Source: Octopus sinensis
Lineage: Eukaryota
Direction: 5' to 3'
Length of the DNA stretch: 64,000 nucleotides
Assembly: GCF_006345805.1 (NCBI RefSeq)
Contig: NC_043006.1
Location: forward strand, 67,766,001 to 67,830,000
The position numbers were made by a program, and so were the translations under genes. The notes beneath the pieces were generated by a model. That model made no database searches. It was not told the origin of the DNA and saw only the letters and a list, made by a program, of their open reading frames with translations. This document shows positions 168-46,311 of this stretch, in pieces. How positions within the stretch are numbered: position 1 is the first letter of the stretch; the number at the start of each line of letters is the position of its first letter.

Positions 168-204
168 TAACTTGAAGTTTTGCCTACACAAGGCTCATCA
201 GGTA
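168..204 (-). ncRNA. Degenerate hammerhead-ribozyme-like motif
   Basis: The minus strand reads CTGATGA-GCCT-tgtgt-AGGC-AAAAC: intact first box and a perfect 4-bp stem II. GAAA is mutated to AAAA, consistent with CpG decay. Confidence 0.45.
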
Positions 205-419
205 AATTTTGTACCGTTGTATATTATATTCTGATAAAATTACTTTTTTAGTTGAGTTGAGTTGAGTTTTTTTTTTTTTTATGGTTGCTGTTAATCAGGA
301 ATCATGGATGGGTGCATATGTTTGATGTGTAATTAATATGTTAATCTAAGAAAGAATGTCATTGTAATTTTATACAAAGAAACCTTTTTAGAAAGGAAGG
401 AAATTGAACATATTTTATA

Positions 420-908
420 CAGTAATCACTCACCATATTGTGGTTCACCAATCACGCCCCCAGTACATTGCAGATTTTTCTGGCTAACATATGTAAATTT
501 ATATTGCGGACTCCTCAGAATATTGTGGGTTTCTACAACCGATAGATATTTATATTACTTTAGATTTTAGCTATTTCTATGATAAAATAAGCATTTTCAC
601 ACCTAAAAATTAATAAATAGAAATACAATACAGTACTGCACTGTGTAACACATTAATTAAAATATATTAAGAGAAAATACGTAGTGTACAAGAGATGAGT
701 AAACAAAGAATCCCGCACACTGTGTGGCAAATGAAATTTAGGAGGCAAGTATGTGGTATTGTTTTACATTTATAATAAAATAAATATATACAAATTATAA
801 AAATTATTTTTTAAAAATATACAATACAGTACTGTTTCTACTTTGTGGATTTTCACCTATGGCAGAGGATTTTGGAACGTAACACCTGCGATAGTCAAGG
901 GAATACTG
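420..908. mobile_element. Tc1/mariner (pogo/Tigger-like) non-autonomous element
   Basis: Ends CAGTAATCAC... and ...GGGAATACTG form imperfect TIRs, with TA on both flanks (418-419, 909-910). Confidence 0.6.
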
Positions 909-1189
909 TATTTCTGAATTGAAGACAGAAGATCACTGTTAAAGGGAGTTGACTCTAACTTCATTATGATCTAAATCATCATCATCATCATCATTTAATG
1001 TCTGCTTCCCATGCTGGCATGGATTGGACTGTTTGACAGAGGGCTGGCAAGCTAGAAGGCTGCACCAGGCTCCAGCCTGAAGTTAAATAACCCAAATTTT
1101 AAATAAAAATTTAAATATGTATTATATTTTGGGAACCATGAGTGAGACGTCATTATATTTAAGTGTTTATGTGGGCAAAAAAAACAAAA

Positions 1190-5460: not shown

Positions 5461-7189
5461 AATCCTTGTGAAGATGCATGGCTGAATGGCTAGTATGTGA
5501 GGTTCATAATCACAAGGTAGCAAGTTTGATTCCCAGACTCGACCATGTGTTGTATTCTTGAGCAAGACCCTTTATTTCACACTGTTCCAGTTAACTCAGC
5601 TGTAGAAATGAGTTGTGACGTCTCTGGTGCCAAGCTGTATCAGCCTTTGCCTTTCCCTTGGATAACATTGATGGCATGGAGAAGAGAGACTGGTATGCGT
5701 GGGCGACAGCTGGCCTTCCATAAAACAACCTTGCCCAGATTTGTACCTCGGAGGGGAACTTTCTAGGTGCTATCCCATGGTCATTCATTACTAAAGGGGT
5801 CCTTTTTTTACTTTTAATTTACACATGGTGTTAAGATGTGCAATGGTGTATGATAGTGAATTATGGGCCATGTATATAGAGGACTAATGTGGTGTGTGTA
5901 AGATTCGTAATGGTGTGTAGTAGTGAAAATGATTTCATGTCCATTGTCCATGCTGGCATGGGTTGTTGAGTTTCATCAAGATCTAAGCAAGTTCTTTCTT
6001 TCTAACTAGTGTTACATCCCTCCTAGATAAGTTGGAATACCCTATTTTGCTTGAATGCCTCTGTTTTAGTTGGTTTATGATTTCTATGCCTGGATGTCCT
6101 TCCTAACACCAACAGTGTATTTTTTATTGTGGAACCAGCACCAAAGAGTTGCTGTACCCCCAACTAGGCCAGATGTATTTATGTTGTATGATATTTGATA
6201 TACCTGTATTTGTTTGTTCAAATATACACCACAAGTTGCTTTGAATTGTTTCTCTTAGCTCAATTTGTTTGAATTATGCAAACTGCCTTAGCCAGGAATG
6301 TGTTGTTCTCGTTTTGGTAAAAGTTTAAGTCTCTTGACTACTGCAAATAAAGTCGCACAATTATCTTGACAATGATGGCTATTGAGTCAGAAACACATAT
6401 CCATGGCTGTCTTCTTATCTCCAGACAATAAGCCTGACCTCTTTCCCTAGTGGCATGTCAACATTGGAGACTTTTTGAATCCTGGGATTATTTTCCCGTC
6501 TCAAATAGAGTTGGTCTTAATTGCCGTTTTGTAATTATGATACATCCTCAGGCGATCAAGATAACTTCAATGTATTAGGAATTTATGTTGTATGGTATTT
6601 GACATATCTGTATTTGTCTATATTGTTCAAATACATGCTACTGGCCACGCTTCTCTTTGCTCGTTTTCGTTTAAATTTTATTCGTATATACATGCAGTCA
6701 CCCAATCTCCATATGTGCTTTGACATAGTACTTATCTTCAGGCGAATTTGTGAATCTTCATACAAAGATATATGCATTAATACTAAAAGGTATATCTATC
6801 TCTCTATCTTATATAAGCACACATAAACATGTGTTAACTTGTACATTCATATGAGTGTTAAACATCTCTCTTACACACACAGAAGCAAGCATATGGATGG
6901 AGGGATCTATGTATATATATTTTATGTGTTTTTCTGTCAATGCCATTATCTATATTTACCATATATATATATGTTTATTATTTTTAATGTATATATTGCT
7001 TTTTAGCTGTGTATGTCTGGATATTTATATTTTCTTTCTTATGCTCGTGTGTGTGTGTCTATTCACATTTATTCTTACTTAGGTGTGTGTATGAGTATAT
7101 TTTTTTTTTTTGCATGTGTGTATATGTTTTAGCTTGTTGTTGTAGTTGTATTTATATCAATATTTCCAACATGTGCTTTGATGTGTGTG

Positions 7190-7230
<41 letters not shown>

Positions 7231-7487: not shown

Positions 7488-7577
7488 AAATAAATAATGT
7501 TTATCTCTCACCAGATGGAGTACTTTTTTTGTTGAATTTTCTATTGTGGATCAGTACATTTTATATACATGTGTGTG

Positions 7578-8708
7578 TGTTAAACAAAATGAGACAGTAA
7601 AGCCAAGGCTGTGTGGAATTTTCAGGACATTTATAAAGAGAAAGTTAGTCTTATAGCTGTTCATGAGATATTAGGGATATCTCTTCATTAGAGGCAATGT
7701 GAGATAGAGGGAATTATTAGAGTTCGATATGAGGAGTTATTTTGGAAAAGGAAGGAAATTTAGGCGCAGGAGTAGCTGTGTGGTAAGTAGCTTGTTTACC
7801 AACCACATGGTTCCGGGTTCAGTCCCACTGCGTGGTACCTTGGGCAAGTGTCTTCTACTATAGCCTCGGGCCGACCAAAGCCTTGTGAGTGAATTTGGTA
7901 GACGGAAACTGAAAGAAGCCCGTCGTATATATATGTATATGTGTGTGTGGGTTTGTGTGTCTGTGTTTGTCCCCCTAGCATTGCTTGACAACCGATGCGA
8001 GTGTGTTTATGTCCCCGTTACTTAGCGGTTCGGCAAAAGAGACAGATAGAATAAGTACTGGGCTTACAAAGAATAATTCCCGGGGTTGAGTTGCTCAACT
8101 AAAGGCGGTGCTCCAGCATGGCCGCAGTCAAATGACTGAAACAAGTAAAAGAGTAAAGAGTGAGAGTAAGAAGTGCATAGGGAAATAGGAGAATGAATGT
8201 AGAAATAAAAAGTAAAGTGGTGTGTAGAATGGGTATAAATGCTTCTTGTCCGTGGTATATAAATTCCAGTGGGAGTTCATATTTTGTTATCACAAATGGA
8301 AAATGTGGACCCCTTTGAATGAACAGCACATGGAATCTATGTCTCCACACTTTCCATTTGTGATGACAAAATATGAACTCCCATTGGAATTTACATACCA
8401 TGGATAGGAAGCATTTCTTCCACCTCTACCAACTGCTTTCCTTGGATAATGGAACTGCAACAATAACATCTTTATACATTTTTATTTCTACATTCATTCT
8501 CCTATTTCCCTTTCTACTTCTTATTTCCATCCTTTCCTAAAACCACTCCTTATATTGAACTCTAATATTTCCCTCTATTTAACCATCGCACATCGTCTGT
8601 GATGAAGGGATATCTCTAATATCCCAGAAACAGATCTAAGACTAACTTCTGCTTTATAAATGTCCTATAAATTCCACACAGCCTTGATTTTGTTGTTTCA
8701 TTTTAACA
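7578..8708. mobile_element. Large foldback element with decayed hammerhead motifs, interrupted by a SINE
   Basis: The left arm (7578-7760 plus 8165-8225) is the reverse complement of 8465-8708, with an inner hairpin at 8261-8392. Hammerhead-like motifs at 8595-8642 (+) and 7648-7695 (-). Confidence 0.7.
7762..8165 (+). mobile_element. tRNA-derived SINE, full length
   Basis: Reads ggcgcaggagtagctgtgtggtaag...gggttcagtccc...accttgggcaagtg... with a (gagtaaaa)-type tail. Copies at 11870-12308, 14766-15108, 46775-47110 and 62730-63085 (-). Confidence 0.8.
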
Positions 8709-9409
8709 TATACATGCTCATACAAGACCCACATTAGACTCCTCACTTGTATTATTATTGAACCGAAAGTTTAACTATGGTCTTTCTATAGCACTTACAT
8801 ACCCTTACCTGCCACCTTGGGTCTTCTGGATACCAATACCTCTCGTGTGTATATATATATATGCACACGTATATACACAAACACGTGTATATGTATACTG
8901 ATGTTTGTGTTGAATCTTTATATTTGCATGTACTTTTGTATGTGTGAACGCATGATGCACTTGCATGTGTGCATGTATAATGGTATCCTTGGAAGTGTGA
9001 ATGCGTATATACACATTAGTATACATACACATGTTATTCGACACACGTTTCTCTCTGTATTTAACAAGCACTGATTGAATCTATGCACATGTGTGTTGCT
9101 GTAGAATACATATGTGCAAGTATGGTTGAGTTGTTGAGAAATGAGTTCCACAGCCACATGGTCCCTGGTTTGATCTCACTGTGTCGCATCTTGGACAACT
9201 GTCTTTTATCATTGCCTGACATTGACCACTACATTGTCACTAGGATTTTAGAGACCGAAACTGGATGGAGGCTCGTGTATGTATGTATGTGTGTTTGCCT
9301 TGAGATTTATCTGAGTTCTTCTTCATGGAGCTCAAGCCAATCCCTAGCAAAGTGACTGGACATTTTTGAGTTGAGATATTTCCTGGCATTTGTAAAAATG
9401 TGGCTGGGT

Positions 9410-9411
9410 TA

Positions 9412-9444
<33 letters not shown>

Positions 9445-10380: not shown

Positions 10381-10439
10381 GCGGATTATATATATATATG
10401 TAAGGTTTCCAACCATGTTGCGACTATTTTGTTTTATTA

Positions 10440-15855: not shown

Positions 15856-16249
15856 CATACATACATATATATGTATATATATTGTTGTAATTATGTTAAA
15901 CTGTCGTATGTCCAAGTTTAACCTGATGGTGCTTTTTTTATTAGGAAGCAATACTACTGTATTGCACTATTTAATAACTTTTTCTTTCAAAACTTTCTCA
16001 CTGTTCTCGGTCTGTTAATCTCGAGGTGTTTCAGACGAGTAAATACTGGCAATGGTGTAGCAACATTTGAGATTTTGTCTAAGTGAATCTAGCAGATGAG
16101 AACTAATCAAATTCACGTCCAACAAACGTAATTTGGAAAGCTCGAAACCTAGGTCCTAGATTATCCATATTTGGGTTGTACATTTATTTAATGTTCTTCC
16201 TACAGGTTAGATGAAATTTTTTATGTTCGCCACCAGCAACATTTTTGCC

Positions 16250-16326
<77 letters not shown>

Positions 16327-16407
16327 TGAAGCTTTACTATAGCGTCGTATATTATCGACTGCTATTTCCAGTAAATATTAGTGCATTGTTGTACCACTAT
16401 CTCATAA

Positions 16408-16455
<48 letters not shown>

Positions 16456-16919
16456 ATTAGTCACTGCGAAGATATATTAACCCCTTAAAGGGGTGATTTC
16501 ATCCAAGTTACACTGGTTTAATACCTTATATTGTTGAGAAATATCTCTTCAATATAGGTAGGTATATTATAAATATTGAATATTATTAAGAAAATGGAAG
16601 TTTAAATGGTTGTAAATTAATTTAACATATTTTTAATTAAGCCTACAATTGTTTCAATTTACACTCTATACAAATTACAAACCTATAGATTAAAATGCTG
16701 GCATTTTGAACATTTTGAGTAAAATATCATCAGGGCCAATGGACATTAAAGGAACTGCATGTTGATCAATTGAGATTCACCAAAATCTTTAAAATGCAGA
16801 TTTTTTATTCTATGGGTTTGTAATTTGTATTGAGCGTAAATTGAAATAATTGCAGGCTTAATTAACAATATGTTAATAGATTAATTTATATCCACTTAAA
16901 CTCTCCATTTTCTTACTTG

Positions 16920-16972
<53 letters not shown>

Positions 16973-17049
16973 TGAAGCTTTACTATAGCGTCGTATATTA
17001 TCGACTGCTATTTCCAGTAAATATTAGTGCATTGTTGTACCACTATCTC

Positions 17050-17104
<55 letters not shown>

Positions 17105-17564
17105 GTCACTGCGAAGATATATTAACCCCTTAAAGGGGTGATTTCATCCAAGTTACACTGGTTTAATACCTTATATTGTTGAGAAATATCTCTTCAATAT
17201 AGGTAGGTATATTATAAATATTGAATATTATTAAGAAAATGGAAGTTTAAATGGTTGTAAATTAATTTAACATATTTTTAATTAAGCCTACAATTGTTTC
17301 AATTTACACTCTATACAAATTACAAACCTATAGATTAAAATGCTGGCATTTTGAACATTTTGAGTAAAATATCATCAGGGCCAATGGACATTAAAGGAAC
17401 TGCATGTTGATCAATTGAGATTCACCAAAATCTTTAAAATGCAGATTTTTTATTCTATGGGTTTGTAATTTGTATTGAGCGTAAATTGAAATAATTGCAG
17501 GCTTAATTAACAATATGTTAATAGATTAATTTATATCCACTTAAACTCTCCATTTTCTTACTTG

Positions 17565-17646
<82 letters not shown>

Positions 17647-18091: not shown

Positions 18092-21000
18092 GATATATAT
18101 ATATTCACACTAAAACAGACAATGGAGTCTGGTAAGATCTTGGCCTTGCCAACTCCTGTCAAACCATCCAACCTATGCCAGCATCATGGCAAATGGATGT
18201 TAACCCTTTAGTGTTTAAACCAGCCATATCTGGCCAGAATATTATCCTTGTTTTATGTTCAAACTTATGTGATTCAGCCTCTCACACCTACCCTACAATG
18301 TCATTCTAAAGGTAAATAATCACACCATCAAAATCTTGAAGCTTTGAGACAAGGCACAAGTAATTCAAAACAACGTGAATAAATTTGAGAGAAATCTAAA
18401 CCCTAAAGGGTTAAATGATGATGATGATGGTGATATATAGAAACACATGCTCACACACTATGTATTTACATATATGCTCATGCGCACACACACACACACA
18501 CACATAAATTCTATCTCCCGTCAAACTAATTCAAAAGTCTGCTTTGCCCTTCTCCCCATTCATCATCATCATCACCATGAACTGTCCAACCTAAATTGCT
18601 CCCTGCTCAGTCCCTCCTATGTGTCTAATGATTATGTTTTTTTATTTCTCTTTCGCTCCTCCCACTCTCCTACAGGTCGCACCATGTTAGATCTGGCGTG
18701 TTTTCGGGGTCATACGGAATGTGTAAATATTTTATTACAAAACCGAGCTGGAATAGCGGTCCACGATTCAGTGATTGGCAGGACCCCCCTTCACAGTGCA
18801 GGTCAGTCTGTCACTCACTTTACTGTTGTTGTTGTTATTGTTGTTGTAGGGGTTTTTTAGTGAACTTGTGGATTAAGGTACAAAGTATACATAAGACAGA
18901 CAGGACATGGTTACAAGCAGTGTGTTTGTGTGTGTGTGAGACAGCCAGTGTATATGCATACATGCATGCATGTATGTTTGTATGTATACATGTATGAAAG
19001 CTAGTCAGTATATTACTATAACATGTGTATATGACAAGTATTCAATGCATTGTGTATGTGAAACAACCAGTATTACCATGGTATGTGTATATAAAAGCCA
19101 AGTTAGATAGTTAATGTATTGTGTGTGTGTGTACATATATATAAATACAGTGTACATTTAAACACATAAGAGGTGTCCATCATAGGATTCCTTGCACGAT
19201 AGAAGGAACAACTAAAGTCCAAGCCACTATTAGGGATAAAAACTCGTACTTATATGTACCTGTTGATGAAGACTTCGCCTAGCAAATTATTTTATTTGCT
19301 AAAAAAAAGTCAGAAACCATTGTCCAGGAGATAGATGGTAAATGTTTTTATTTTTCATTCCCTTCGAGTTTTTATCCCTAATAGTGGTTTGGACTTTAGC
19401 TGTTCCTTCTAGCATGCAAGGAATCCTATGATGGATACCTCTTATGTGTTTAAATGTATTTATATGAATAATGTATAGTCTATTGACTAAATTTTTCTAC
19501 ACGCTAGTCCACAGGTAATAAAAATTTCTAAAATCTTTATTACTCTGATATTATTAATTTTATATATATATATATATAAATCAGTGACTGTTTATGTGCT
19601 TGTGTGTGTATGTTTGTATTTCCATGTCTTGACATTGTCATTGTTGTAAATGAATACCATTCTTTTCCGATATTCTATGCAAACATTACTGACCTTGAGG
19701 AAATATTACCTTGCTTGGAAACAGGTAAGAGATGGTGATGGGAAGAGCATCCAGCTATAGAAAGATTTTACCTTAAACTGCCCAACCCATCATGCCATGC
19801 AAGCATTGAAAAGGGTCCTTCAAAATGAGGACATATGTGAGTATGTATATGTGTTGATGTGTGTGTATATATCTATGACAGCCATTTGTGTGTGTGTGTG
19901 TGTGGTGCTAGTCACCTTCTATTCATTTCTATATTACAACCTTTTAAACTGATAAAATGTGCTGTGCGTCTACTTTCAGCATACAATGGCCACACGGAAT
20001 GTCTACGGGTACTGCTACATGCTGCAGAGGATAGTTGCATAGTCGATTGTACAGATGACAACGAAAGGTAGGTTACTGCTACTCACCCCCTTCCCATAGA
20101 CATTATAAACAACCCTTCGTTTTGATTTTAAAAATACCCCATTATCATATCCAATTACTGGCCAATAATCTTGTTTCTAAATATCTACCCCTTAAATATC
20201 AACCCCTTAAATATTAACCCCTTAAGTATCAACCCCTTAAGTATCAACCTCTTAAGTATCAACCCCTTAAGTATCTAACCCTTAAGTATCTAATCCTTAA
20301 ATATCTACCTTTGTCTGCCTTCTTAGATATTTATTTTTATGACCCACATAATCCTCATGTCAGCACTCCCTGAAGTGTAATTCTAGTCTCACCAGATTGG
20401 GAGGTGGGGGAAGGGGACTTGTGAAGGCCATGGGCCCTACTCCTAACATCATTAAAAAAAAAACAATATCCACTCTCTATAGTTCGTCCCTTAAAGTAAT
20501 ATTTCCCATTATATTTCTTCTTTCCTACCATTTAATAATAATCCTTTCTACTATTAACATAAGGCCTGAAATTTTTTGTGGGAGAGGTTAGTTGAATATA
20601 TCAACCCCAGTGCTCTGCTCAACTGGTACTTATTTCATCAACTTTGAAAGGATGAGAGCAAAGATGACAAGGGCAGGATTTGAACTCAGAATGTAAAGAC
20701 AGGTAAAATGCCACCAAGCATTTTCTCTGGCATGCTAACGATTCTGCCGCCTCGCTACCTTTCCTACTATAGGTACAAGGCCTGAAATTTTGGAGGAGGG
20801 GACTAGTCAGTGACATATACCCCAGTGCTCAACTGGCACTTATTTTATCAACCCCTAAAAGGATGAAAGGCAAAGTCGACCTCGGTACATTTTGAATCCA
20901 GAACATAAAGACAGACAAAATACTAAGCACTTTGTCTGACATACTAACATTCTGCCTTCCTGAGATTCTACCAGCTCCTCACCTTAATAATAATAATGAT

Positions 21001-27000: not shown

Positions 27001-30000
27001 GTTTTGGTGTGGTTTTTTACTGCTGGATGCCCTTCCAAATGCCAACCACTTCAGAGTGTGGACTGGATGCTTTTTCCGTGGCATCAGCACTGACCATTCT
27101 GTTGTATTAATACTGGATGGCTGCTGTATTATCTCAGATTTTATTTACAATGTTCACTAGAGTATACTTCATCATCGTTGTCATCATTTTAAGGTTTGCT
27201 TTTCCATGTTCACATAGGTTGGACAGGATTTGTTGAGGAGGATTTTCTATGGTCAGTTGACCTTCCTATCAGCAACCCTCACCTGTTTCCAAATATGATA
27301 ATATTTTTCCTTGACCAGACATGTTTTGCACAAGTTTTGGTAATGAAGAACACCGCTTGCACAACAGTGACATTCGTTTACAATTATTATGCAATGTCAT
27401 GGCAAGGAAATTGTTCTTACACACAACTGGCATCTTTCCGTCTACCAAATCCATTAGTAAGGCTTTGGTTGACCTAGGGCTATGGTAGAAAACACTTGCC
27501 CAAGGTGCCACACAATGGTACTGAACCCAGAACCATGTGATTGGGAAGCAAACTTCTTACCTCACAGCCAATGTTGTCCATGGTCACTGCTTAACTGTAA
27601 CAGCTAACCACAATTATATACCTTCAATATCAACATTGACCAGTGGTCTTTGATATACAACTGACCACACACTAGCCTAAAGTAGTCTATGGTATACAAC
27701 TAACCACACTCAACAGTGATCTATATATAACTTGCTTCTTCTTTTACAGAACTGCTGTTGGAAAACGGTGCTGATCTGTCTTTGGTGGACGATGACAAAA
27801 ATACCCCCCTCCACCATGCTTGTATAAATGTAAGATTTGCATATTACTCTTTCTCTTTCTTTCGTCTCTTTGTCTTTGTGTATTTCTCTGCAGTTAAATA
27901 TATTACTCTCTCTCTCTCTCTGTGCTCCTCTCTTTACAGCACCATGCCCATGTTGCTATGCAACTGTTAAAGAAAATAAATGACTCCACGACTGTAAATA
28001 TTGCCAACTCTGAACTGAAAATGTAAGTATTGTGTGTGTGTGTGTGTGTCAACACTACTATGCATGTTAAGAATGTGCGTGTGTGTGTGTTAATACAGTC
28101 AGCTGTGTATGTCAACACTACTAACTGTGTGTGTCATCAGCATCAATTCTCAATATTCTCTTGGCAGAGTTTGAACTCGGAACATAACAACAGACAAAAT
28201 ACCGCAATATTGTTAAATCTATGTGTCAGTACAGTCAGCTGTGTGCATCTCTACATCCATCAGCTACTGAGACAAGACACAAGTTGATTATGGTGTTTCA
28301 TCTATTCTAATCTTGCAATCAAACTCCTGACAAGGCCTCTTTACAGCTAGGTAGACTGAGCATAAAAGGGATAGAGAAATGTCTTTATCACGTCAAGTGT
28401 TGGGTAGGTTTCCAATGAATCATACTCATACCCCCCCACTTCATTGTCCCCTCGTCTATGAAAATGCAACATTCTCACATCTGGGCTTACCATATAAATT
28501 GATGGATTTCCACCCAGTCTTCATCTACCAATTTTCACTCACAAATCTTTGATTGGTCAGAGACTATGATAAACAACCCTTTGCCCAAAGTGCTACACAT
28601 ATGGCTCCAACCTGAGTGTGTTGAATTGTGAAGTGAACCTCTTAACCACTTGGTCATTACCTAACCCCATCCACAGTGATGTGGGTGTAGTAACTAATTA
28701 TTTAGCTTAGCAGTGAGTGAGTGCTGGCACCACATGTGAAGCATCCACGCTGGTCCCATGTATGAAGCTGCACGCTGGCACCACACATGAAGCACTTACA
28801 TCAGCACTGCAGATGAAGCCCCCCGCACATTCCGTAAAGTGGTTGGTATTAAGAAGGGCATCCAGCCACAGAAACCATGCCAAAACAGACGACTGGAGCC
28901 TGGTGCAGCTCTCTAGTTTGCCAGCTTCTGTCAAACCATCCGACCCATTCCAGCATGAAAAGCAAACATTAAATGATGATGATGATGATGATTTGTCTGC
29001 TTGTTTAAAGGTGTGGTGGAAGGATAATTGTAATAGCAATGTTTTGATCAGTAACCCAACGTTAGTGACTTTACAGTCACTGTGCTATACCTAGCAAAAA
29101 CTTGGCACAGTGGCTGTAGCAAAGTTTGAACCTGTGACCAAAGGGATAGGGATTTAGAAACTTAACCATTGACCCTCTTGATCTACAATGATTCATTCAG
29201 AATGTGTGTGAATCTGTTGGATGCATCATTGTTTGTATATGTGTGGTTTGTTTAATGGTAGTAGTAGTAGCAGCAGCTCTACATCATCTCTGATAATACA
29301 GTTCTATATTTTAAGAGATGAAGAATTATGTACATTATTTACATTTGACGGATATTTGTCCTTACCTTGTTGTTGTTAACATAACATTTCGGCTGATATA
29401 CCCTCCAGCCTTCATCAGGTGTCTTGGGGAAATTTCAAACCTGGGTTCTCATTCCTAAGGTATTTTTTGATGTCGTTGTTATTATTATTATTATTATTCG
29501 GGTCACTACCTGGAATCGAACTTGGAATCTTGGGGTTAGTAGCCCATGCTCTTAACCACAACACCCACAGGCATATGGCATAGTGGTTAAGAGCACAGGC
29601 TACTAACCCCAAGATTCCGAGTTCGATTCCAGGCAGTGACCTGAATAATAATAATATCGGAAAATACCTTAGGAATGAGCACCCAGGTTCGACATTTCTC
29701 CCAAGACACCTGATGAAAGCTGGAGGGTGTATCAGCCGAAACGTTGTGTTAACAACAAACAAGATGAGGGCAAATATCCGTCAAATGTAAATAATGTATC
29801 AAATATCCGTCAAATGTAAATAATGTTTAGTCACCTAAACAATTAGGTATGAAGCACAGATCTGTTATTCCAGAGACATGTTGCTCTTGATAAAACTGAG
29901 CAGCTGAGTGCACCCTCTGATATGCAGTGATGAACTGGACATATTATACTCCTCCCACTGACCATTCTGTTTTTGTAAACCTGTACAAAAATGGCCACAG

Positions 30001-30646: not shown

Positions 30647-33600
30647 CTTGGAAATGGATGCATAGCATTCAATCATGTAATAATATAAATTATATATATA
30701 TATAAATGCATATATACATATGTACACACCTACATATATATGTATATATACATGCATATATGGGTACAGGACGTCAAAAAAACATGAACAAAATTAAAAA
30801 CAAGAACATAAAAAAAAACAAAAGCATGGAAAACAACTTGTTTTCGAACGACAAAAGAAACAAATAGAGAAACGAGACAGGCGACAAAGAACAATACCTT
30901 CATCAGTTGTCCCCTGTTTTATCAACTCCACGTTTTGAATGCTGGGAGAAGACGCAACTTTGTTAAAACAGTTGTTCCTGCAAAGCAAATTAAATAAAAT
31001 TTGGGATTTGCAGCGGGTTAAAGTGGTCACAAAAACAGGACAGTAAAAACAAATGGTAAGGGCTGTTAGATAGATATATATACACGTGAGCATACAAACA
31101 AAAGAAGGGCACTCAACACATTTATTGGGAGTTACATGTATGGATCAAACAGTTTGATTCAAATTCCTTTAGTACTTTAAGTTTCAAGTGTGATGCTAGT
31201 CTTCAGCAATTGGAATTAGAGCTGTTTCGGTAGCATTTTATTGATGCATTCACAGATTACATCATAGTATAAATCCACCGTCCTCAGAAAAAAAAAATTA
31301 AGCATGTACAAACAGGCAAGGTAAAAAGCCTTGATGATAACCTATTCAACAACTAACATGATGAACAAGAGATATTGTATTGGCAACTGAAGGTCCTGCC
31401 AGTAACTGTGGCCAAACGGTGACATAAATACTAAAACCACCTCCATCATTATTGTTTTCTTTATTACCAGGTTACACCCCAGCTTTGGCCTGTGCTCCAA
31501 ACAGCCAGGTGGCAGACTGTCTCTCCATTATCCTCAACCACATGATGCCTTTCCACAACAATTCTACGTACAGAATCAACCGTTCCAGTCTAGGTGAGTG
31601 TCTTTGATGTCAGTGTACATGAAACATCTCTACTGTGGATGAAACCTAACAGCTATTGCATGTATGTGAGTGTCTGAGTGTGTGTGTATGTGTGTGGTAG
31701 TTGTATCTTAGAAGCTCAATTCCTTTACTTTATCAATATATATTGACGTTGCTACTGTTGTTGTCGATGTTGTACTGTCAGTATTGTAGGAACCCTACCT
31801 CACACAGCTTTGTTCCACTGCATTGCACCCTTCTGTTGTCAGTGTTCCATGCATGATTGCTTTTATCAGTTTCTATTTGGTGTGTGTAAGATATGTGATG
31901 GTAGTGAAAAACGGACAGTGAATGTAGAGGACTACATGTGGTGCATGGTAGTGAAACATGGTTTTTATTGAGGCTTGTATGTGATGTATGTAATATGTGA
32001 TGGGTTACAGTCATGGATTATGGGCTGTGTATAGAGGACTGTATGTGCTGTGTGTAAAATGAAGTTGTTCGCAAATACACTCCAATCTCTGGTCCATAGA
32101 TAAGCTATCACTTTGTATTTTCACTATGGTGCCCTTTGTTGCTCAGAGCTGGTTGGGCACATACCACTCCCATCCTGGCTCACTCAGCTCTCCTCCTATC
32201 ATCGCCCATATTGTGTGCATCCTACCAAGCATCACTTTAACTACTACACCCAGTTCATTGTCAACAAGACATCAGCCATCTGGAATTCCTTTCCTGCAGC
32301 TATCAACTTCCAAGAATTCAAGCTGGGTATACATGACAACAGTTTCACTGATTTGACAGGGTCTGTGGAGGTCATGGGCACTGCCCTTCCTTTAGACCCA
32401 ACCAACTACTAAAAAAACAAATGTATGCGAGAATTAAATGACAATGTTTTAAGTGCTTCATTACATTCAATACAACTGTGAGACAGCTTTGTTATTATGG
32501 GCATATAACTATAAAAACATGTTACCCATCAGGTGGTGTATTGCCGTGTGTTTGGTATTGCATTGTTTATGCAATTAGGGGTGAAAATGATGTGGGATAT
32601 CATCACAGATTAAATAACCTGTTCAACACATATGAAAATCCTGCTGCATTACAGATTCTTCTTCCAAGTCACATCAGTGTGGAGGCAATATTGAAGATGA
32701 TTAGCAAATCCCAATACATTAACTCAATTCTCTCTCACAATCAACTCCTTCTCTCATTTCATTACAGATTGTGGTCAAGGTGAGAGGGCATAGCACTAAC
32801 TGTAACACTCTGTAATAAATTATTCCTTTGTCTTTCATTTTAAGCTTCAGTGTTCCAAGTTTGAATCCCATCGAGGCGTACTTTGTTTTTCATATTTCCA
32901 GGGTCAGTGAAATAAACAAAGACAAGACAAATGCTGGAATTAACCTAATCATCTGTCTAAGCTCTCCAACCATGTTGATTAATGACTGTATGATGGAGTG
33001 TTCAGATAAGAGTGGCTTTCCTTGAGTGCGGCTACTGCTTAAGTGTGATTATTACGAAGGGTGAGCATACTTCAGAGGTGGACATTTCAAAACAATGCCC
33101 TCCACTTTCTGGTCTGCTGCCCACAACTTTGTTGACAATTTATTGCTCCTGTTGTAATATTTTCAGAGAATTCACCCTCCGGTGATGATGATGATGACGT
33201 TGATGATGAACATCTGAAACCAATGTAATATACACATATATATACACATATAAATACTTATATACATATGTTCTTTATATTTAATTCTGACTAATTCTCT
33301 GAGCCAGTCTGGCCATTACTCCCACCTCTTCCAACTTCAAACATGCTACCATCACCGTTGTCAAGGCAACAGTGGTATTTCAATTTATCCCACCCCATCC
33401 CATAACTTGCATGCACGTGGTCAGTCCTGGCTCGTTCTGGCTTATAACTAATCTATATAACGTAGTTGTAGTGTGGCCCCTGATTCTGCTCTTTCTTCTG
33501 CCTTGTAGAGGTCCTTTGACCAAACACACTGCTTCGTGTATTGTCTCTTTCCATCTCTCTATATCTTTCTCTCTCTCTCCCCCTTTCTCTTTTCATGTAG

Positions 33601-35419: not shown

Positions 35420-38400
35420 ATCTAAAGGTGGCAAGCTGGCAGATGTGTTAGGGCACTGGGCAAAATGCTTAGCAGTATTCCAAGATTGACTTTGCCTTTC
35501 ATCCTTTCAGGGTTGATAGAATAAGTACTAGTTGAATACTGAGGTGGGGGGATGTAATTGACTTAACTACTCCTGGGTAAGAGTATAAAAAAATTTTTCC
35601 CTTCTATCAAGCCGTTGGGACAGAATAGGCTTATCAAACCAGTGTGATCTCGAGTTCAAATTCACAGCCTTCACATCAAACTGCAGTTGGTGGAGAGAAC
35701 ATGCTGAGCCATTCGTCCTACAGACAATGGAACATATTGGCAATCCACTCCAATCCAATAGATCTAACATATGCACCATTGAAGTTGCCCTTAGGGCATG
35801 GCAACTCATCACTTACCTTTTTTGTCCAGAATCTCCGGTGAATACACACTAAGAACATACACCTAGAAGTACTGTACACGTCACCGATACCTATGTAGTG
35901 TACATCTCATATACACACCTACACTACCAACAAGCTCAATGGAAACAGTTTATTATTTTCTTTCTTTTTGTTTGTAAATGAAAACTGATTCTTTAATAAA
36001 TAGTGTGTGATGTGTGTATATATCATGCATGTACAGCGTGTGTGTGTGTGTGCGTGCAATGACAGAAGCAGGATCTTATTTATGTTCCCCTTAGAAACTG
36101 AAAGAAGCCTGTCATGTGTGTGTGGTGTGTCCCATTGTCTTGACATAGCATGATTCATTTCCAATCAGCCGTGAAAAGCATATTTGCCCATGGGGGAAAT
36201 AATACCTCTCTTGGGAAAAACATGAGGATCGGCAACAGGTAGAGTGTCCAGCCATAGAAAATTTACAATCTACTTCAAGTAATTGTATGGCTTGTTTGAG
36301 CATGGAAAAAATTGGATGTTAAAATATTATATAAGGTTGGTGTTTTGTGTTGGCAAGACTTACATTATGTAGTGCAGTCATTAAAACGAGTACGGTAAAC
36401 TTGCTGTGAGGAGGAGAAAATCCAACATTTTGTACCCAATTCTTCTTCAGGGTAAAAGATAAGGAATTAATGGAAGACAGCAGAGTTTTACATCCTTAAA
36501 TGATGTAAAACTCTGCTGTGACTCATTGATTTTCATCTTGTCATGGCAAGTTCATTGCAGATTTTTTTTTTCAAGTGCATTACACTATATATTCATGTGT
36601 ATATACACATGCATACATACATACACACATGCACTCATACTGTGCCTATAATATGTATGTTTTGCATGTAGGGGTTGTATTTTCTTTGTTTTTGTTTATT
36701 CTATTCATATGGGTGCATGGCTGTGTGGTTGTAGTTAAGATCACTTCCCAATGCTAAAGTGTCCGGTTCAATCCCACCATATGGCACCTTGGGTAAGTGT
36801 TATCTGCCATAGCATCAGGGGATTGTAAACCTTTTACATAAAATTGGGCAGATAGAAACTGCCCTGGTGATTTGTGGGCCAGCCATTGTATCAATGATTC
36901 TGACTGTGGAATACGCAACTATTTACATACAGTTATACTAATTTTCCACTTGATTATTACTTTAATGGCACATGTGGCTATGGAATACTCTACCACTTAT
37001 ACAATCAAGTAGCAGTTCCTTTGGACTGAGCAATCAATTAGGCAATCATCAAAATCAGAGATCCATTCATATGATCTATGTTACATGTGTATATATTTTA
37101 TAGATATATGCATGTTTTTGTAGCATGTATGTGTATGGCCTGTGTGTACATATGAGTTAGTGGGCGTGTGTGTGCACACATGTATGTTTGGTTATATATA
37201 TATAGCACGGATACTTTCTTATGGTGCCTCATGAAAAGTACCCAGTGCACTCTGTAAAGTGGTTGGCATTAGGAAGGGCATCCAACCATAGAAACCATGC
37301 CAAAACAGACAGTTGGAGCCTGGACAGCTCTCTAGCTTCCCAGCTCCTGTCAAACTGTCTAAGTCCATGCCAGCTTGGAAAACTGACGTTAAATGATGAT
37401 GATATAAGGGTATGTATAAGCCTGTATATATATTTATGCATATCTTCAGTATTTCTCATTGAGAATGCAACAAGAAATCAAAAATTATTCAATCATAACT
37501 ATGTCTAAAGGAAAAAGTATTTTAAATATCATGCAAAACACACACACACACTTGTATATGCATGTAGGTATGCAATGACTATGTATTGTATTATATAAAA
37601 GGTTGACAGTCTACTTTGAGTTTTGCCTCAAGTTGGGCAACTCACTACTGCCTGTCCACTCTACTGGATGTATTGAGTTCTATATCAGATAATGCTTGCA
37701 CTATATAAAATATATTTTAACACACACACACACACACACTATATGTATTTCATAATATATCTCACATATGCTTTTCTGCATTGGACAGATTCATAACACA
37801 GTCCCGTTTTCCATTGCATCACCTTTGAGATACCAGTTTCTAAGATAGCTATGAACATGTCATTGCAGTTCTTCTTTGGTTTATCACTACTAAAAATAGC
37901 TTCCGAGTCCCCCCCCCTCACTTGTTATATACCATGCAGTTAGTCACCTGTTCATATAAAAAAACACGGACTCATCAGGTATTATTTTTGAGACTCATCA
38001 ATAAATTTTCTTGTGAGTCAACATTGCATACTCTCTTGACTAGTCATTTCCTTCTTTTATATATAATCTATGTTTCACTATTATCACTCATCACATAGTC
38101 CTTTCTGTCTCTCTCTCTCATCATATATTTACTCTCTCTCATCATATATTTACTCTCTTTCGTCATATAGTTGCTCTCTCTCGTCATGTATTTTTATTCT
38201 CTTTTTTCTCTCTCTCTCCCTGTATAAATATATATGTACACACACACATTTTGTCCATCTTTACGTTCTGAATTCAAATTCTGCTGAGGTCATCTTTGCC
38301 TTTCATCTATTCAGGGTCAACAAAATAAGTACCAGTTGAACACTGGGGTCAATGTCATTCACTTACTCTGTCCCCGCAAAATTGCTGGCTTTGTTCTAAA

Positions 38401-39633
38401 GTCTGAAACTAATGTTTTCACTATCCCTGTTTCACTACCATACCACACCACATGTAGTCCTCTACATACACTCACCATCTGTTTCTCTTCTCTATACAAC
38501 TACATATCTAGCATATACCTTGTATAGTCTTATCAACCAGTGTAAAAGTTCACTGAATGTTTTACACCCATGAGTCTCGTCATTTACCTTTGAAACAGTC
38601 CTTCATTACTGATTCAGTTTTCTCAAACTGTTAACTACTCTGTTTATCTTTTACATCTAAAACATTGTTTCCTAACAACAGATACTTCACCATGAAATAG
38701 TACCTCCTACACACTGTTAGAAAGTGGCCATATTTATCTTCTTCACACAAAGCCATTCTTCTTTCAACCAAATAGTTTACAATTCTTACAACCAGGTGCC
38801 ACTCTCTGTTAGCACCAGGTGCCGTTCCCCTGTTACTACCAGGTGCTGTTCTCCTGTTACGACCAGGTGCCATTCCCCTGTTACTACCAGGTGTCGTTTC
38901 CCCTGTTACTACCAGGTGCCGTTTCCCTGTTACGACCAGGTGCTGTTCCCCTGTTACGACCAGGTGCCGTTCCCCTGTTACTACCAGGTGCCGTTCCCCG
39001 GTTACGACCAGGTGCCATTCCCCTGTTACAACCAGGTGCCCTTTCCCTGTTACAACCAAATAGTTGTTAAACCACAGCAATTTTTGTGTATCCACAACTT
39101 TTGTGTCCTCAAGCTTTCACTGATTGACTTACAGGTAGAAACGACTCACTTCTTCCATCCACTGTTATTATTGACCCTCCCACTTTCACTCCCACCCTTA
39201 CACAGGCTCTATACATTCCTCTTTTTTTTCTTCCTCAGAGGGGGACACTTTCTCAGCGACATTTTTATAATGGCCAAGCCAACAAACATGATCATGTATT
39301 TGTGTGTAAGCCAACCCACAACAGAGTCTATGCATGTATGTGTGCATGAACTCCTGTATCTGTGTGTATATGTATATATATGTGCTGTGAATGTAAACTA
39401 TACACCCATTACTACACTGCTAATTAGTTAATTATCATCATATGTATAATTTCAGATTTATTGTCTACTGCTTTTTTATTATTATTATTTCTATTATTAT
39501 TATTATTATTATTATCATTATTATTATATATTTGCTTTTTACTCACCGTTCACCCACATCCAGGAAAGAGGGTAACCAACCCTCCATAGTAGGCAAGTGT
39601 GTATTTTGTCATCTCTCTCCCTCCCCACTCTCC

Positions 39634-39664
<31 letters not shown>

Positions 39665-42600: not shown

Positions 42601-45600
42601 GATAGTTCAAAGAAAAGTCTAAAATGTGTATTACTGGAATTGAAACGAACACGACACTGTTGGAAGGTAGGTTTAGAGAGGGTGTAGGCCAAAACTACAA
42701 GGATTCTGGATTGTTTTTCCTGTTTTTTTACTTAACTTTTGAGAGCAGTTGGGTTCATTTTTAGTATTCTTGTTTGTGAGAGCAGTCGAGTTTATTTCAG
42801 ATATTCTCATTTTGAAAATCATCTCTGGCTAATTGTTGAGAGGATGTTGGTGTTGCCTTGGCAGAGGTTTGTGCTCTCTGAGTATTCTTATTATTATGGT
42901 TATTAGATTGGCAGAACCATTTGGGTGTTTTTGTTTATTTCAAGTGCTTTGAAGATGTCTTTGCCTTTCATCCTTTCCATGTTGTTAAAATTAAATTGCA
43001 GTCAGGTTATTAGGATTGATATTATTTGATGGTTTCTCCCTAGAAAATACCTGGCCTCATGTTTCAGGCCTTTCTGCTTAGCACAAGGTATTGAACTCCC
43101 AAACCTGGCTTCTGTGTGTTGAGTATTGAGTCCTACAGCAATGTTTCACCCTCCATTCCACTCAACTTGATCCGTTGTCTAATTGATACGTTTACCGCTT
43201 TTATTTTTTTCCCCCAGGCATCAAGACCTTTGTTCTGACTGGGATCTAAAACAGGGTTATATGATGCATTTGACAGAGGCAATGACAATGTACACTCATT
43301 GAAAATTCAACTAAAAATTATACTTTGCCTTCTGTATTATTTTTTCCATCAATATCAAGTTTAAGGCAGTGAGTGAAGGCAATCATAAGGCAGCATGTTG
43401 TGTCCTTGAGCAAGACACTTTATTTCACATTATTCCAGTCCACTTAGCTAGCAAAAATGAGTTATACTTGTACTCCAAAAGGCCAACTTTATCACATTCT
43501 GTGTCTTGCTGAATCTCCCTGAGAACTACATTAAGAGTATGCGTGTCTGTGGAGTGCTCAGCCACTTGCCCGTTAATTTCACTAGCAAGCTGTTCTGTTG
43601 ATTGGATTAACTGGAACGCTCGTCGCTGTAACCAACAGAGTGCCAGTTAATCATTACCATTCCAGGTAAAATGTTTTGTGGCATTTCATCCATCTTTACA
43701 TTCTGAGTTCAAATTCTCCTGAGGTCGACTTTCATCCTTTCGGGGTTGATAAAATAAGTACCAATGAAACACTGGGGTCAATGTCATCAACTTAATCTCT
43801 CCCTTAAAATTACTGGCCTTGTGCCAATATTTGAAACCAATATTCAACAAATTTGCTTCCCAGTCACATTCTTGCAGGTCCAGTTCCACTGCATGGCACC
43901 TTCAGCAACTATAGCCCCAAGTTGACTAAAGCCTTGTGAGTGGATTTGGTTGACAGAACTGAAAGAAGCCTACTGTGTGTGTATGAGCATATGGTATACA
44001 AAACATCATAACTTAAAGTGCTGACTCTGAAATCTGTAGAAAATCTATAGTTTATCACATAAAACTGAAAATATTGCACTGCTAACACAAGAAGTAGGAC
44101 ATGATATTGACTTGTAAACCTTTAATATACTATAGTATATTATGGTTGCAAAATGAAATACTGTGTTGTTGCCAGTAATTAATATAATTATATTGTGTGT
44201 GTATGCTTGTGTATACACTTGTCTTGACATCATGTGATGGCTATAAACGAGCCTGTTGTTAGTTTCCAGTCTTCCATGAAAAATATGTCTGGCCATGTGG
44301 GAAATATTACCCTGCTTGGAAACAGGTGAGGGTTGACAACAGAAGAGCATCTAGCCATAGAAAATCTGTCTCAGCAAATCTCATCTGTTCCATGTAGGCA
44401 TGGAAAACGAACATTAAAGGATGATCTTATATATCATTATCATCGTTTAGCATCTGTTTTCCATGCTGGCATGGGTTTGACTGGAACTGGTAAGCTGGAG
44501 AGCTGCACCAGGTTCCAGTCATCCATTTGGCTTGGTTTCAATGGCTGGATACCTTTCCTAGCACCAACCACTTTACAGAATAAACTGAGTGTGTCTTACA
44601 TGGCACTGGCAATGACCATCGTCCACTTAGCTTGACATGTCTTTTCAAGCACATCAAATCACCAGAAGTCCCTTTACACCATAGATATAGTCCTTCGTGG
44701 CTGATATATGGTTAGTATGTTTCACACCAGACGGTCAAGGCCTAACAACAGTACAGGCACAGATATTGGATTGCTGACATGTGATGTTTGATGGCAGAAA
44801 AAGTCCAAGTTGTCATCTGCAGTAAACCTTCCTCACCACTTTAATATTTTCTTGGGTGGCAAGCTGGCAGAACTGTTAGCATGCCAGGCGAAATACTTAG
44901 CGGTATTTCGTCTACCGTTATGTCCTGAGTTCAAATTCCGCCATAGTCGACTTTGCTTTTCATCCTTTTGGGGGTCAATTAAATAAATACCAATTACACA
45001 CTGGAGTTGATGTAATTGACTTAATCTCTTTATCTGTCCTTGTTTGTCCCCTCTATGTTTAACCCCCTGTGGGCAATAAAAATATAAATATTTTCTTGTT
45101 TCCTTTCTCTATATGAATACTAAATTAAGCATTAGATAAGGCGACGTACCAATCTATATTATATACATTCATCAACATATCTTACATCTGATATAATAAT
45201 TGCTAGTGTTAAATAATTTTGCATATCTATTTCGATTCATCACAGCTGATTGCATACACAAACAGCGCACACTGTTCCCCCTAAGGGGCCTGTGAGGTTT
45301 TCTTTTTTGCCATCTTTTATCATGTTCGATACAGAATTATCCATTCTGCTGTGTCCTTCACTCATTCTACTAACTATTTATATTTCTCTCTTTGTATCTC
45401 TTTCTCTCTGTTGTTCAATGTTGGGTTTATTGCAGGAACAGTACTTTGATTCTGCAGTGGAGCTGTCTATAAAATTTTGTTGGCTTTCTGCTTAAGCTGC
45501 ATGCTATGCTTTTTGTTGGTGGGTTTTTTTTTTTTGGTTTATTTGTTTTGTTTTTTGATTCTAGCTTCATAGCAGCATAGGTGCACTTTGTTGCTTACAA

Positions 45601-46311
45601 AAATAACATGTATACATATTAGCCAGTCATTCTTTGTGATAAGCTGTCATTGTGGTGTCTACAATCAAGGCAGTTACCATTGGTATCAATAAAGCACCTG
45701 GTCAGCATTATGAAGGGCATCCAGCTGTAGAAACCATGTCAAAACTAGCAATAACCTTCAGTGCAGCCCTAGCAGCTTACCAGATCCTGGTAAATGATGA
45801 TTACTTCATTAGGAAGCACCCCCATAGAAAGTGATTGCAATCTGGGCATCTTAACATTATCTCTGTGTATCTTGTTTATGAAGGGTTGTGTATGTGATAT
45901 GCATAGCTGCTTTATATATATATATAATATAATAAAATATAACCCGTCTTGAATGGCTCAACAATGCAGAGTAGACTATAATAACTGTTGTACTTTAATT
46001 ATCCATAGTCTGATGTAATATTTTGGAATACAAAAATTCCTTCTTCAGATATTGCTAGGAATTGATCGAGTCACTGCTATAATCAGTTTTCCAACGGTTA
46101 CTGAAAACCAATTATAGCAGTGACTCAATCAATTCCTAGTGATATCTGAGGGAGGAATTTTTGTATTCCGAAATATTATATCAGACTATGGATAATTAAA
46201 TTACAACAGTTATTATAGTCCACTCTGCATTGCTGAGCCATTCAAGACAGGTTATATTTTACAAACAATACACAATGCTTCAAGCAAACTACAATACTCT
46301 CCTATATGTGT

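What the first reader, a model, noticed from the sequence alone, without database searches (positions are those of the whole stretch)
168..46260. Many unrelated minimal hammerhead ribozyme motifs, mostly in or beside foldback elements
Seen: at least seven sequence-unrelated elements share the hammerhead layout stem I - CUGANGA - stem II - GAAA - short stem III - NUH - stem I. The loci are 7648/8595, 16086, 16640/17285, 19259, 29378/29705, 31216 and 46141, with weaker traces at 168, 6520 and 36424. Stem III is usually a self-complementary palindrome (ACCTAGGT, ACAATTGT, AACGTT, consensus ACAGCTGT). Established: minimal type I hammerheads with palindromic stem III that work as dimers occur in Penelope-like element pLTRs and in metazoan non-LTR retrozymes, and PLE insertions often carry an inverted 5'-truncated copy. 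Inference: this genome hosts many small, non-autonomous, ribozyme-bearing PLE-mobilised families at high density that standard annotation would call MITEs or simple inverted repeats.
Basis: partly seen in the sequence, partly recalled or inferred. Interest (0 to 1): 0.85.

Follow-up and report, generated by a model that had tools for sequence, protein, structure and literature searches.

The report
Penelope-type ribozyme repeats, one tRNA-headed SINE
The window holds mostly decayed copies of nine repeat families whose ends carry the sequence layout of minimal hammerhead ribozymes, a known mark of Penelope-like retroelements, and one family has a tRNA-derived head, so it is likely a SINE spread by Penelope-type enzymes rather than by the usual LINEs.

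Summary
All seven main loci and 36424 are copies of dispersed repeat families whose column majority (36424: after allowing CpG decay) gives a minimal type I hammerhead with a palindromic stem III. A ninth family abuts 31216. Sites 168 and 6520 fail. A scored scan gives 6 hits against 0 in 40 shuffles. Most window copies are mutated.

The families show Penelope-like (PLE) insertion marks: head-to-head inverted copies and a tail on one arm only.
- B and G are 5'-truncated coding PLEs.
- C and E are non-coding partial tandems, retrozyme-like, with variant cores (U4C, U3·G8).
- A (29.3-29.8 kb) is a tRNA-Arg-like head, an (AAT)n tract and a hammerhead tail. It has 2,105 exact ribozyme copies, a one-armed tail in 39 of 42 pairs, and target-site duplications.

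PLE hammerheads are known; a PLE-mobilised SINE was not found in nine paper searches. Its partner PLE was not found, and cleavage and transcription are untested. An unchecked scan note from another genome describes a ribozyme-free, tRNA-like element with PLE-type insertions.

The parts
29296..29565 (-). Family A left arm: partial tRNA-like head (29497-29565), (AAT)n, body 29296-29471 with hammerhead 29378-29423 (palindrome hit by CpG decay) and the ~40-nt optional tail
29570..29798 (+). Family A right arm: tRNA-Arg-like head with A and B boxes (29570-29645), (AAT)n, body 29653-29798 with hammerhead 29705-29750 (G10.1 mutated); no tail
7570..7760 (-). Family B inverted arm with decayed hammerhead 7648-7695; cut off from the foldback centre (~8310) by an unrelated dispersed repeat at ~7768-8157
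8310..8860 (+). Family B arm: 3' non-coding end of a coding PLE with Hydra-type endonuclease; hammerhead 8595-8642; ~100-nt tail on this arm only
15920..16420 (+). Family C: non-coding ~435-nt head-to-tail unit (retrozyme-like); hammerhead 16086-16162; family master U4C
16400..16912 (-). Family D foldback: long arm 16400-16783 (-) with intact hammerhead 16640-16737 and long stem II; truncated inverted arm 16781-16912 (+)
16922..17598 (.). Tandem duplicate (678 nt, 99.9%) of 16276-16953, holding the second family D hammerhead 17285-17382 (-); a recent duplication or an assembly artefact
19130..19570 (+). Family E foldback: truncated inverted arm ~19130-19250 (-), main arm ~19255-19570 (+) with hammerhead 19259-19328; non-coding ~460-nt head-to-tail unit; family master U3·G8
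31070..31222 (-).
31217..31310 (-). Family F2 element, hammerhead 31217-31287; the 3' strand of stem I is replaced by the abutting F1 copy
36370..36490 (-). Family J, old copy; decayed hammerhead 36421-36453
45933..46091 (-). Family G inverted arm, hammerhead 46011-46054 (G12 mutated), no tail
46103..46300 (+). Family G arm: 3' end of a coding PLE (RT thumb plus GIY-YIG in longer copies), hammerhead 46140-46183 (A9 mutated), ~44-nt tail on this arm only

Best explanation
The motifs are minimal hammerhead layouts near the 3' ends of nine repeat families, which were likely all inserted by the reverse transcriptase-endonuclease proteins of Penelope-like elements (PLEs); two families are truncated coding PLEs, two are non-coding tandem units, and one is a tRNA-headed element that likely works as a PLE-driven SINE. 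Shown: the hammerhead layout, the polarity, the ORFs of B and G, the ~435 and ~460-nt periods of C and E, the head-(AAT)n-body linkage of A, the one-armed tails and A's target-site duplications. Inferred, from the in vitro work on an anole Poseidon (PMC11167929): the PLE protein nicks both strands of AT-rich DNA; each nick primes reverse transcription at one of two start sites downstream of the ribozyme, one giving the long end and one the short end; the two cDNAs then join at their truncated 5' sides, leaving a head-to-head foldback inside one duplication. Also inferred: A is transcribed by RNA polymerase III from its head and inserted as uncleaved RNA. The ribozyme would act as a weak, dimer- or protein-assisted cutter or as a recognition fold, which would explain tolerated core variants. 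D, F1, F2 and J look short and non-coding, but that is not settled.
For: Hammerhead in the column majority of 8 of 10 aligned families, with unrelated stems around a shared core; the test can fail, and did for 6520. Genome-wide, one core pattern has 12,950 matches against 34 for its reversed control; the exact family A ribozyme has 2,105 against 0. Inverted partner upstream/downstream: A 16/0 of 30, B 4/0 of 20, C 0/0 of 20, D 12/1 of 20, E 5/0 of 20, F1 9/2 of 19, G 4/0 of 20, F2 4/0 of 15, J 4/0 of 12; some rows are the two arms of one insertion. Tail on exactly one arm in family A: 25 of 25 pairs with both 3' ends (4 of 29 pairs dropped as truncated) and 14 of 17 in a second set. Other families: B 3 of 4 rows, D 9 of 14, E 7 of 8, F1 9 of 9, G 4 of 4. 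PMC11167929 calls this tail unique to PLEs. Flank duplications >=10 nt in 8 of 25 A pairs against 0.17% of 600 mismatched pairs. The arms share 9 private non-CpG letters against 3.7+-1.6 (7 of 2000 permutations). G: 25 of 100 endonuclease loci matched its end. B: 33 of 70 Hydra-type endonuclease loci matched its ribozyme region, most on the same strand ~1 kb past the endonuclease. Unbroken 775-796-aa RT plus GIY-YIG frames exist in G000. A head: 48 of 71 letters identical to a tRNA-Arg(UCU) gene of G000, z 7.7; A and B boxes each in 26 of 30 copies, 34 nt apart. The body follows the head in 24 of 30 head-selected loci, and a head piece precedes the body in 25 of 30 body-selected loci.
Against: No autonomous PLE sharing the 3' end of A, C, D, E, F1, F2 or J was found among 170 endonuclease loci, nor for A among 27 copies lacking the upstream (AAT)n. 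Rfam and ARAGORN do not call the A head a tRNA, and other tRNA isotypes score nearly as well as Arg. 3 of 17 pairs break the one-arm rule. 17 of 25 A pairs show no duplication of 10 nt or more. B looked non-coding in its first 20 loci and proved coding later, so 'non-coding' for D, F1, F2 and J is weak. The GIY-YIG Pfam hits of B and G fragments are below the curated cut-off (E 0.0008-0.007). The G palindrome is predicted not to self-pair stably (+1.4 kcal/mol) and A's only weakly (-1.7).
Confidence: 0.82

Rival explanations
1. Family A is an ordinary LINE-mobilised tRNA SINE that once captured a PLE 3' fragment behind its (AAT)n tail; the hammerhead is a passenger, and the foldbacks come from LINE-type twin priming or later rearrangement.
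For: No partner PLE found. A tRNA head followed by (AAT)n looks like a complete LINE-type SINE (recalled). In 2 of 30 head-selected loci no body was detected by the first screen.
Against: The 3' end is not a simple repeat but two discrete ends ~40 nt apart, one per arm in 39 of 42 pairs. Both arms carry the 3' end, which LINE twin priming does not produce (recalled). The same geometry occurs in the coding PLE families B and G.
Confidence: 0.09
2. All families are simply 5'-truncated copies of autonomous PLEs; no non-autonomous families are involved.
For: True for G and B. B's ORF appeared in only 4 of 30 upstream-selected loci, so small samples miss it. PMC4209133 reads most single motifs as truncated PLEs.
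Against: A has a fixed tRNA-like 5' start. C and E run upstream into their own 3' ends, with periods of 387-452 nt in 18 of 30 loci and 421-466 nt in 8 of 30, and no PLE ORF lies upstream on the same strand in 30 loci each.
Confidence: 0.06
3. The foldbacks are MITEs or simple inverted repeats, and the hammerhead patterns are chance matches picked by eye.
For: No Rfam hammerhead hit; most window copies are imperfect; 168 and 6520 fail. The 6520 family has its inverted partner downstream (2 of 12) and may be a DNA transposon.
Against: Enrichment over shuffles. Family majorities repair the window copies' mismatches. Many copies have one arm only, the arms differ in length at both ends, and two families connect to PLE ORFs.
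Confidence: 0.03

Closest known systems
Minimal type I hammerheads of metazoan PLEs (Cervera and de la Pena 2014, PMC4209133)
   Same: Core, extra nucleotide after A9, short palindromic stem III, many unrelated families per genome, opposite-strand pairs 100-700 bp apart, mostly truncated copies.
   Different: Stems II up to ~70 nt (D); masters with U4C (C) and U3·G8 (E), where the sections read report U3-A8; a tRNA-headed family is not described in the sections read.
EN+ PLE insertion units (Craig et al. 2021, PMC8557442; Frangieh et al. 2024, PMC11167929)
   Same: 5' truncation, inverted 5'-truncated copy, optional tail at one end, variable target-site duplication, (TA)n neighbours. B carries the Hydra-clade endonuclease motifs; G is a CCHH-type C-terminal GIY-YIG element.
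   Different: Tails of ~100 nt in B, D and E against 30-40 bp in print; the one-long-one-short rule is near obligate in A (39 of 42).
Animal non-LTR retrozymes (PMC7229834; bioRxiv 10.64898/2026.07.22.740005)
   Same: C and E are non-coding head-to-tail units of ~435 and ~460 nt with one type I hammerhead each; retrozymes are proposed to be non-autonomous PLE derivatives.
   Different: Mostly 1-1.5 units rather than arrays; minimal, variant cores; circular RNA untested. A is not tandem (no ~300-nt period in 30 loci).
Schistosome Sm-alpha / Sj-alpha SINE-like elements (passages in PMC6765202, PMC2770079)
   Same: Polymerase III promoter of tRNA-like origin followed by a type I hammerhead.
   Different: Those often occur as tandem repeats processed by the ribozyme, and no PLE-type insertion mark is given in the passages read. 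A has a minimal PLE-type ribozyme, no tandems, and head-to-head foldbacks with a one-armed tail.

Membership tests
Minimal type I hammerhead (PLE type) | Core C3-A9, G12-A15.1, U16.1-H17 with stems I and II | tested here: met
Minimal type I hammerhead (PLE type) | Palindromic stem III needing a dimer | tested here: met
   Perfect 4- or 8-nt palindromes in A, B, C, D, E, F2 (and J by CpG reading); odd-length ones in F1 and G; predicted self-duplex -11.4 to +1.4 kcal/mol
Minimal type I hammerhead (PLE type) | Extra nucleotide after A9 and G10.1-C11.1 pair | tested here: met
   Extra letter in all but C (E depends on register); G-C closing pair in 7 of 9, not in D and F1
Minimal type I hammerhead (PLE type) | Self-cleavage at H17 | not testable with these tools
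   No assay; only assembled contigs were available
EN+ PLE (autonomous) | RT plus C-terminal GIY-YIG ORF upstream of the ribozyme | tested here: met
   G and B, in longer genomic copies; none in the window itself
EN+ PLE (autonomous) | Same ORF for A, C, E | tested here: not met
   No same-strand upstream PLE ORF in 87 A, 50 C and 50 E loci
EN+ PLE (autonomous) | Same ORF for D, F1, F2, J | tested here: inconclusive
   None linked in 12-20 loci each, too few given the B experience
PLE-type insertion | Inverted 5'-truncated copy at the 5' side | tested here: met
   8 of 9 families; C had none in the first 20 loci
PLE-type insertion | Optional 3' tail at one end only | tested here: met
   A 39 of 42; B, D, E, F1, G; C, F2 and J not tested
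PLE-type insertion | Variable-length target-site duplication around the whole unit | tested here: met
   A only: 8 of 25 >=10 nt against 0.17% null; other families not tested
Hydra clade PLE (family B) | CxCx5C linker, no CCHH, CxxC and CxH around E and N | tested here: met
   Read by eye from broken copies L388, L389, L394, L398 against PMC8557442 section 11; the linker is complete only in the four-copy majority
Hydra clade PLE (family B) | RT phylogeny | not tested
   No reference set available
Non-LTR retrozyme (C, E) | Non-coding head-to-tail units with one type I hammerhead | tested here: met
   Partial tandems in 18 of 30 C loci and 8 of 30 E loci
Non-LTR retrozyme (C, E) | Circular RNA from double cleavage | not testable with these tools
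   No raw RNA reads offered
tRNA-derived SINE (family A) | tRNA-related head with A and B boxes at a fixed 5' end, short, non-coding, dispersed | tested here: met
   ARAGORN and Rfam negative
tRNA-derived SINE (family A) | LINE-type 3' end (simple-repeat tail or LINE-shared sequence) | tested here: not met
   The 3' end is a hammerhead body with two discrete ends; (AAT)n is internal. No LINE library was searched.
tRNA-derived SINE (family A) | Polymerase III transcription | not testable with these tools
   No run of four T within the element in 3 copies read; otherwise untested
PLE-driven SINE (family A) | Partner PLE with the same 3' end | tested here: inconclusive
   Not among 170 endonuclease loci out of thousands of candidates
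MITE / TIR element | Symmetric terminal inverted repeats with a short fixed duplication | tested here: not met
   Arms unequal at both ends and often single; duplications 10-16 nt and variable in A

The most novel reading that the evidence does not exclude
Family A is a SINE whose driver is a Penelope-like element: a tRNA-Arg-derived polymerase III head fused to a PLE hammerhead tail, copied thousands of times by PLE protein. That would add PLEs to the enzymes that mobilise SINEs and give a 270-320-nt natural minimal template for PLE integration. Its foldbacks, with one long and one short end, would record two-strand priming from the two start sites. A bolder corollary (about 0.2) is that the palindromic stem III pairs two RNAs so that each nicked strand gets a template, cleavage being secondary.
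Probability: 0.6. Interest if true: 0.68.

Novelty: new variant of a known kind. Interest (0 to 1): 0.5.

Why it matters
That PLE ends carry minimal hammerheads is known, so most of the window is an ordinary example, though one that Rfam misses. Three points go further. (1) A tRNA-headed, PLE-tailed family would extend the SINE-LINE partnership to a third retroelement class. (2) It defines a very short RNA that PLE protein should accept, which makes the open question of what the PLE hammerhead is for directly testable. (3) The near-obligate one-long-one-short arm rule and the amplified U4C and U3·G8 masters fit the in vitro result that cleavage is dispensable for insertion.

Tried and rejected
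- Rfam on the window and on a family A copy: no hammerhead, no tRNA. ARAGORN on 10 loci and, at lowered thresholds, on the head majority: nothing.
- Site 6520: family majority lacks the core, rejected. Site 168: two local copies, unsupported. Sites 60820(+) and 60515(-): scores in the shuffle range, not followed.
- My first reading that B is non-coding was overturned.
- My idea that A merely inserts beside a separate short SINE was rejected: head and body are linked both ways, and in L004, L011 and L024 another element sits inside A's (AAT)n.
- The apparent G10.1/A split in A was query bias; G dominates in contigs of four runs.
- Partner search for A failed.
- Expression: no RNA holder listed and only contigs offered. 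Contigs of 4 of 21 listed runs, under four organism labels, cover head and body but cannot show starts, ends or strand; no head-to-tail joint was among the rows shown. This is no evidence either way.
- The bacterial promoter scan is irrelevant here.
- Two papers were not held. No supplements were read, and no Repbase, Dfam or SINEBase was at hand, so family A may already be catalogued as a SINE.
Full report
Setting. The window is G000:C10:67766001-67830000 in a 2.72-Gb assembly, 37% GC and rich in simple repeats. From its repeats I take it for an octopod cephalopod; that is recalled and untested.

Observation. Rfam finds no hammerhead at E<=10. A strict descriptor gives 5 hits against a mean of 0.13 in 30 block shuffles. 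A scored one gives 6 hits at score >=9 against none in 40 shuffles; two of the six are a 678-nt tandem duplication. Most window copies are mutated, so I tested families. Every main locus is a dispersed repeat. First-look candidates, which are lower bounds and not copy numbers, were A 4335, B 2282, C 514, D 272, E 2210, F region 1047, F2 290, G 1372 and J 61. Alignments of 12-43 copies per family, taken from the best-scoring hits and so biased towards the query, give a full minimal hammerhead in the column majority of A, B, C, D, E, F1, F2 and G. J passes only when CG/CA/TG decay is allowed for. The 6520 family fails, and 168 has no family. The site at 31216 is two abutting elements of different families. 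Copies with all 11 majority core letters: A 32 of 43, B 16 of 23, C 6 of 20, D 12 of 22, E 18 of 27, F1 13 of 22, F2 3 of 15, G 7 of 21 (G is undercounted by alignment gaps). Genome-wide, a core pattern matches 12,950 times against 34 reversed, and the exact A ribozyme 2,105 times against 0.

Core variants. In C, position 4 is C in 14, T in 5 and A in 1 of 20 copies, with G5 changed to A in 5; this is symmetric CpG decay from a U4C master. In E, position 3 is T in 24 of 27 copies opposite G8 in 25. A coding sister subfamily of B also has U4C, and the youngest coding PLE family ends in a U3-A8 form. U4C is known from a viroid and U3-A8 from nature (PMC3088659, passages and section 8; PMC4209133).

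Insertion geometry. Inverted partners lie on the 5' side: A 16/0 of 30, B 4/0 of 20, C 0/0 of 20, D 12/1 of 20, E 5/0 of 20, F1 9/2 of 19, G 4/0 of 20 (upstream/downstream), F2 4/0 of 15, J 4/0 of 12. Some rows are both arms of one insertion, and the downstream cases lie in tandem duplications. In A a ~40-nt extension is on exactly one arm in 25 of 25 pairs with both 3' ends (4 of 29 pairs dropped as truncated) and in 14 of 17 in a second set. The same holds in B 3 of 4, D 9 of 14, E 7 of 8, F1 9 of 9 and G 4 of 4 rows, with tails of ~44 to ~100 nt. Outer flanks share >=10 nt in 8 of 25 A pairs against 0.17% of 600 mismatched pairs, and the arms share 9 private non-CpG letters against 3.7+-1.6 in 22 pairs. 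The foldback therefore arose in one event, from one source. These are the marks given for PLEs in PMC8557442 (passages). PMC11167929 (parts 1-2 of 4) traces the tail to two reverse-transcription start sites, calls it unique to PLEs, shows cleavage and extension of both DNA strands, and finds the ribozyme protein-assisted and dispensable for insertion in vitro.

What each family is. G: longer copies run into an RT thumb and a GIY-YIG domain ending ~250 nt before the ribozyme; 25 of 100 endonuclease loci match its end. B: 4 of 30 upstream-selected loci run into an endonuclease with the Hydra-clade motifs, Pfam GIY-YIG E 0.0008 and 0.005; 33 of 70 loci found with that domain match B's ribozyme region. 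C and E: their 5' sides run into their own 3' ends, with periods near 435 nt (18 of 30) and 460 nt (8 of 30), and no upstream ORF; they resemble retrozymes (PMC7229834 passages; 10.64898/2026.07.22.740005 part 1 of 5 and passages). D, F1, F2 and J: short, no linked ORF in 12-20 loci each, unsettled. Unbroken PLE frames of 775-796 aa with RT and GIY-YIG exist in G000. None lies in the window.

Family A. The full unit is a 78-nt head, (AAT)n of variable length, a ~145-nt body with the ribozyme, and the optional tail. The head majority matches a tRNA-Arg(UCU) gene of G000 at 48 of 71 letters (z 7.7, above all 300 shuffles; 27 distinct tRNAs of 6 isotypes compared, others close behind). A and B boxes are each present in 26 of 30 copies, 34 nt apart. 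ARAGORN and Rfam do not call it a tRNA. The body follows the head in 24 of 30 head-selected loci, and lies there in either orientation in 28; a head piece precedes the body in 25 of 30 body-selected loci. Inverted arms often end right at the head's first bases. A is not tandem. None of six other families tested has A and B boxes upstream (0 of 19-20 loci each). Copies are ~4% from the majority outside CpGs. In contigs of four runs under four organism labels, the only conserved core letter varying at 5% or more was G12, in a CpG; N7 and loop II vary. No partner PLE was found among 170 endonuclease loci or 27 copies without upstream (AAT)n; thousands of candidates were not examined.

Mechanism. 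Shown: layout, polarity, ORFs, periods, tails and duplications. Inferred: PLE protein nicks both strands, primes one cDNA from each start site, and the cDNAs join at truncated 5' sides. A is a polymerase III transcript used uncleaved, and C and E come from multimeric or circular RNA. A likely arose when a PLE 3' end came to lie behind the (AAT)n tail of a tRNA SINE (inference). Cleavage, transcription and the driver are untested.

Known and new. Minimal hammerheads in PLE ends, many families per genome and opposite-strand pairs are in PMC4209133 (parts 1-2 of 4). A tRNA-like promoter followed by a hammerhead is known from schistosome Sm-alpha (passages in PMC6765202 and PMC2770079). Nine searches showed no paper on a SINE mobilised by PLEs or on hammerheads in octopus repeats; a 2026 octopus repeat annotation has no occurrence of 'hammerhead' or 'ribozyme' in its main text (PMC13282606, passages). 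PMC6962438 and PMC10886601 were seen as passages only and added nothing. Lunse et al. and Ohshima and Okada 1994 were seen only as reference-list entries; the latter describes tRNA-derived octopus retroposons and may include this family. Subscription journals, supplements and repeat databases were not seen.

Verdict. The feature is real and mostly a known kind. The tRNA-headed, PLE-tailed family and the two variant-core tandem families are a new variant. Interest 0.5.

Noticed in passing
L269:1032-3374, L270:1021-3363, L275, L276 (G000 C1, C6, C19, C3): A very young PLE family with unbroken 781-aa RT plus GIY-YIG frames and a cysteine-rich linker (Neptune-like by the CX2-5CxxC motif); its 3' end carries a U3-A8 variant minimal hammerhead ~0.9-1 kb after the stop. 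A second unbroken family (L272, 775 aa) is 47% identical.
   Followed up: partly
L408, L410, L412, L417 and others: Another abundant hammerhead family, absent from the window: ~220 nt, non-coding, between (TA)n runs; roughly half of the first 100 listed matches of the genome-wide core pattern.
   Followed up: partly
window 16276-17598: 678-nt tandem duplication at 99.9% identity covering the tail of family C and the family D foldback; a very recent duplication or an assembly artefact.
   Followed up: partly
window 31164-31287: Family F1 abuts family F2 right at F2's predicted cleavage position, replacing the 3' strand of its stem I; possibly a short shared sequence.
   Followed up: no
L004, L011, L019, L024, L174: An unrelated ~300-600-nt element ending in (AAT)n has inserted into the (AAT)n tract of family A copies, suggesting a microsatellite-targeting retroelement.
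   Followed up: partly
L131-L150, family G stem III: The stem III palindrome grows by trinucleotide steps between copies and stays near-symmetric.
   Followed up: no
window 11585-11648 (-): A second, older tRNA-like head (75% to A's) followed by a different body without a hammerhead.
   Followed up: partly
window 6480-6600 and L297-L308: Old repeat family without a hammerhead; inverted partner downstream in 2 of 12 loci, possibly a DNA transposon end.
   Followed up: partly
L379, L380: A family B copy in which RT-like coding sequence joins directly to the 3' non-coding region, an internally deleted form present twice in the assembly.
   Followed up: no
window 10462-10927, 20148-20312, 38782-39095: Minisatellites with 26-, 15- and 24-nt units.
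   Followed up: no
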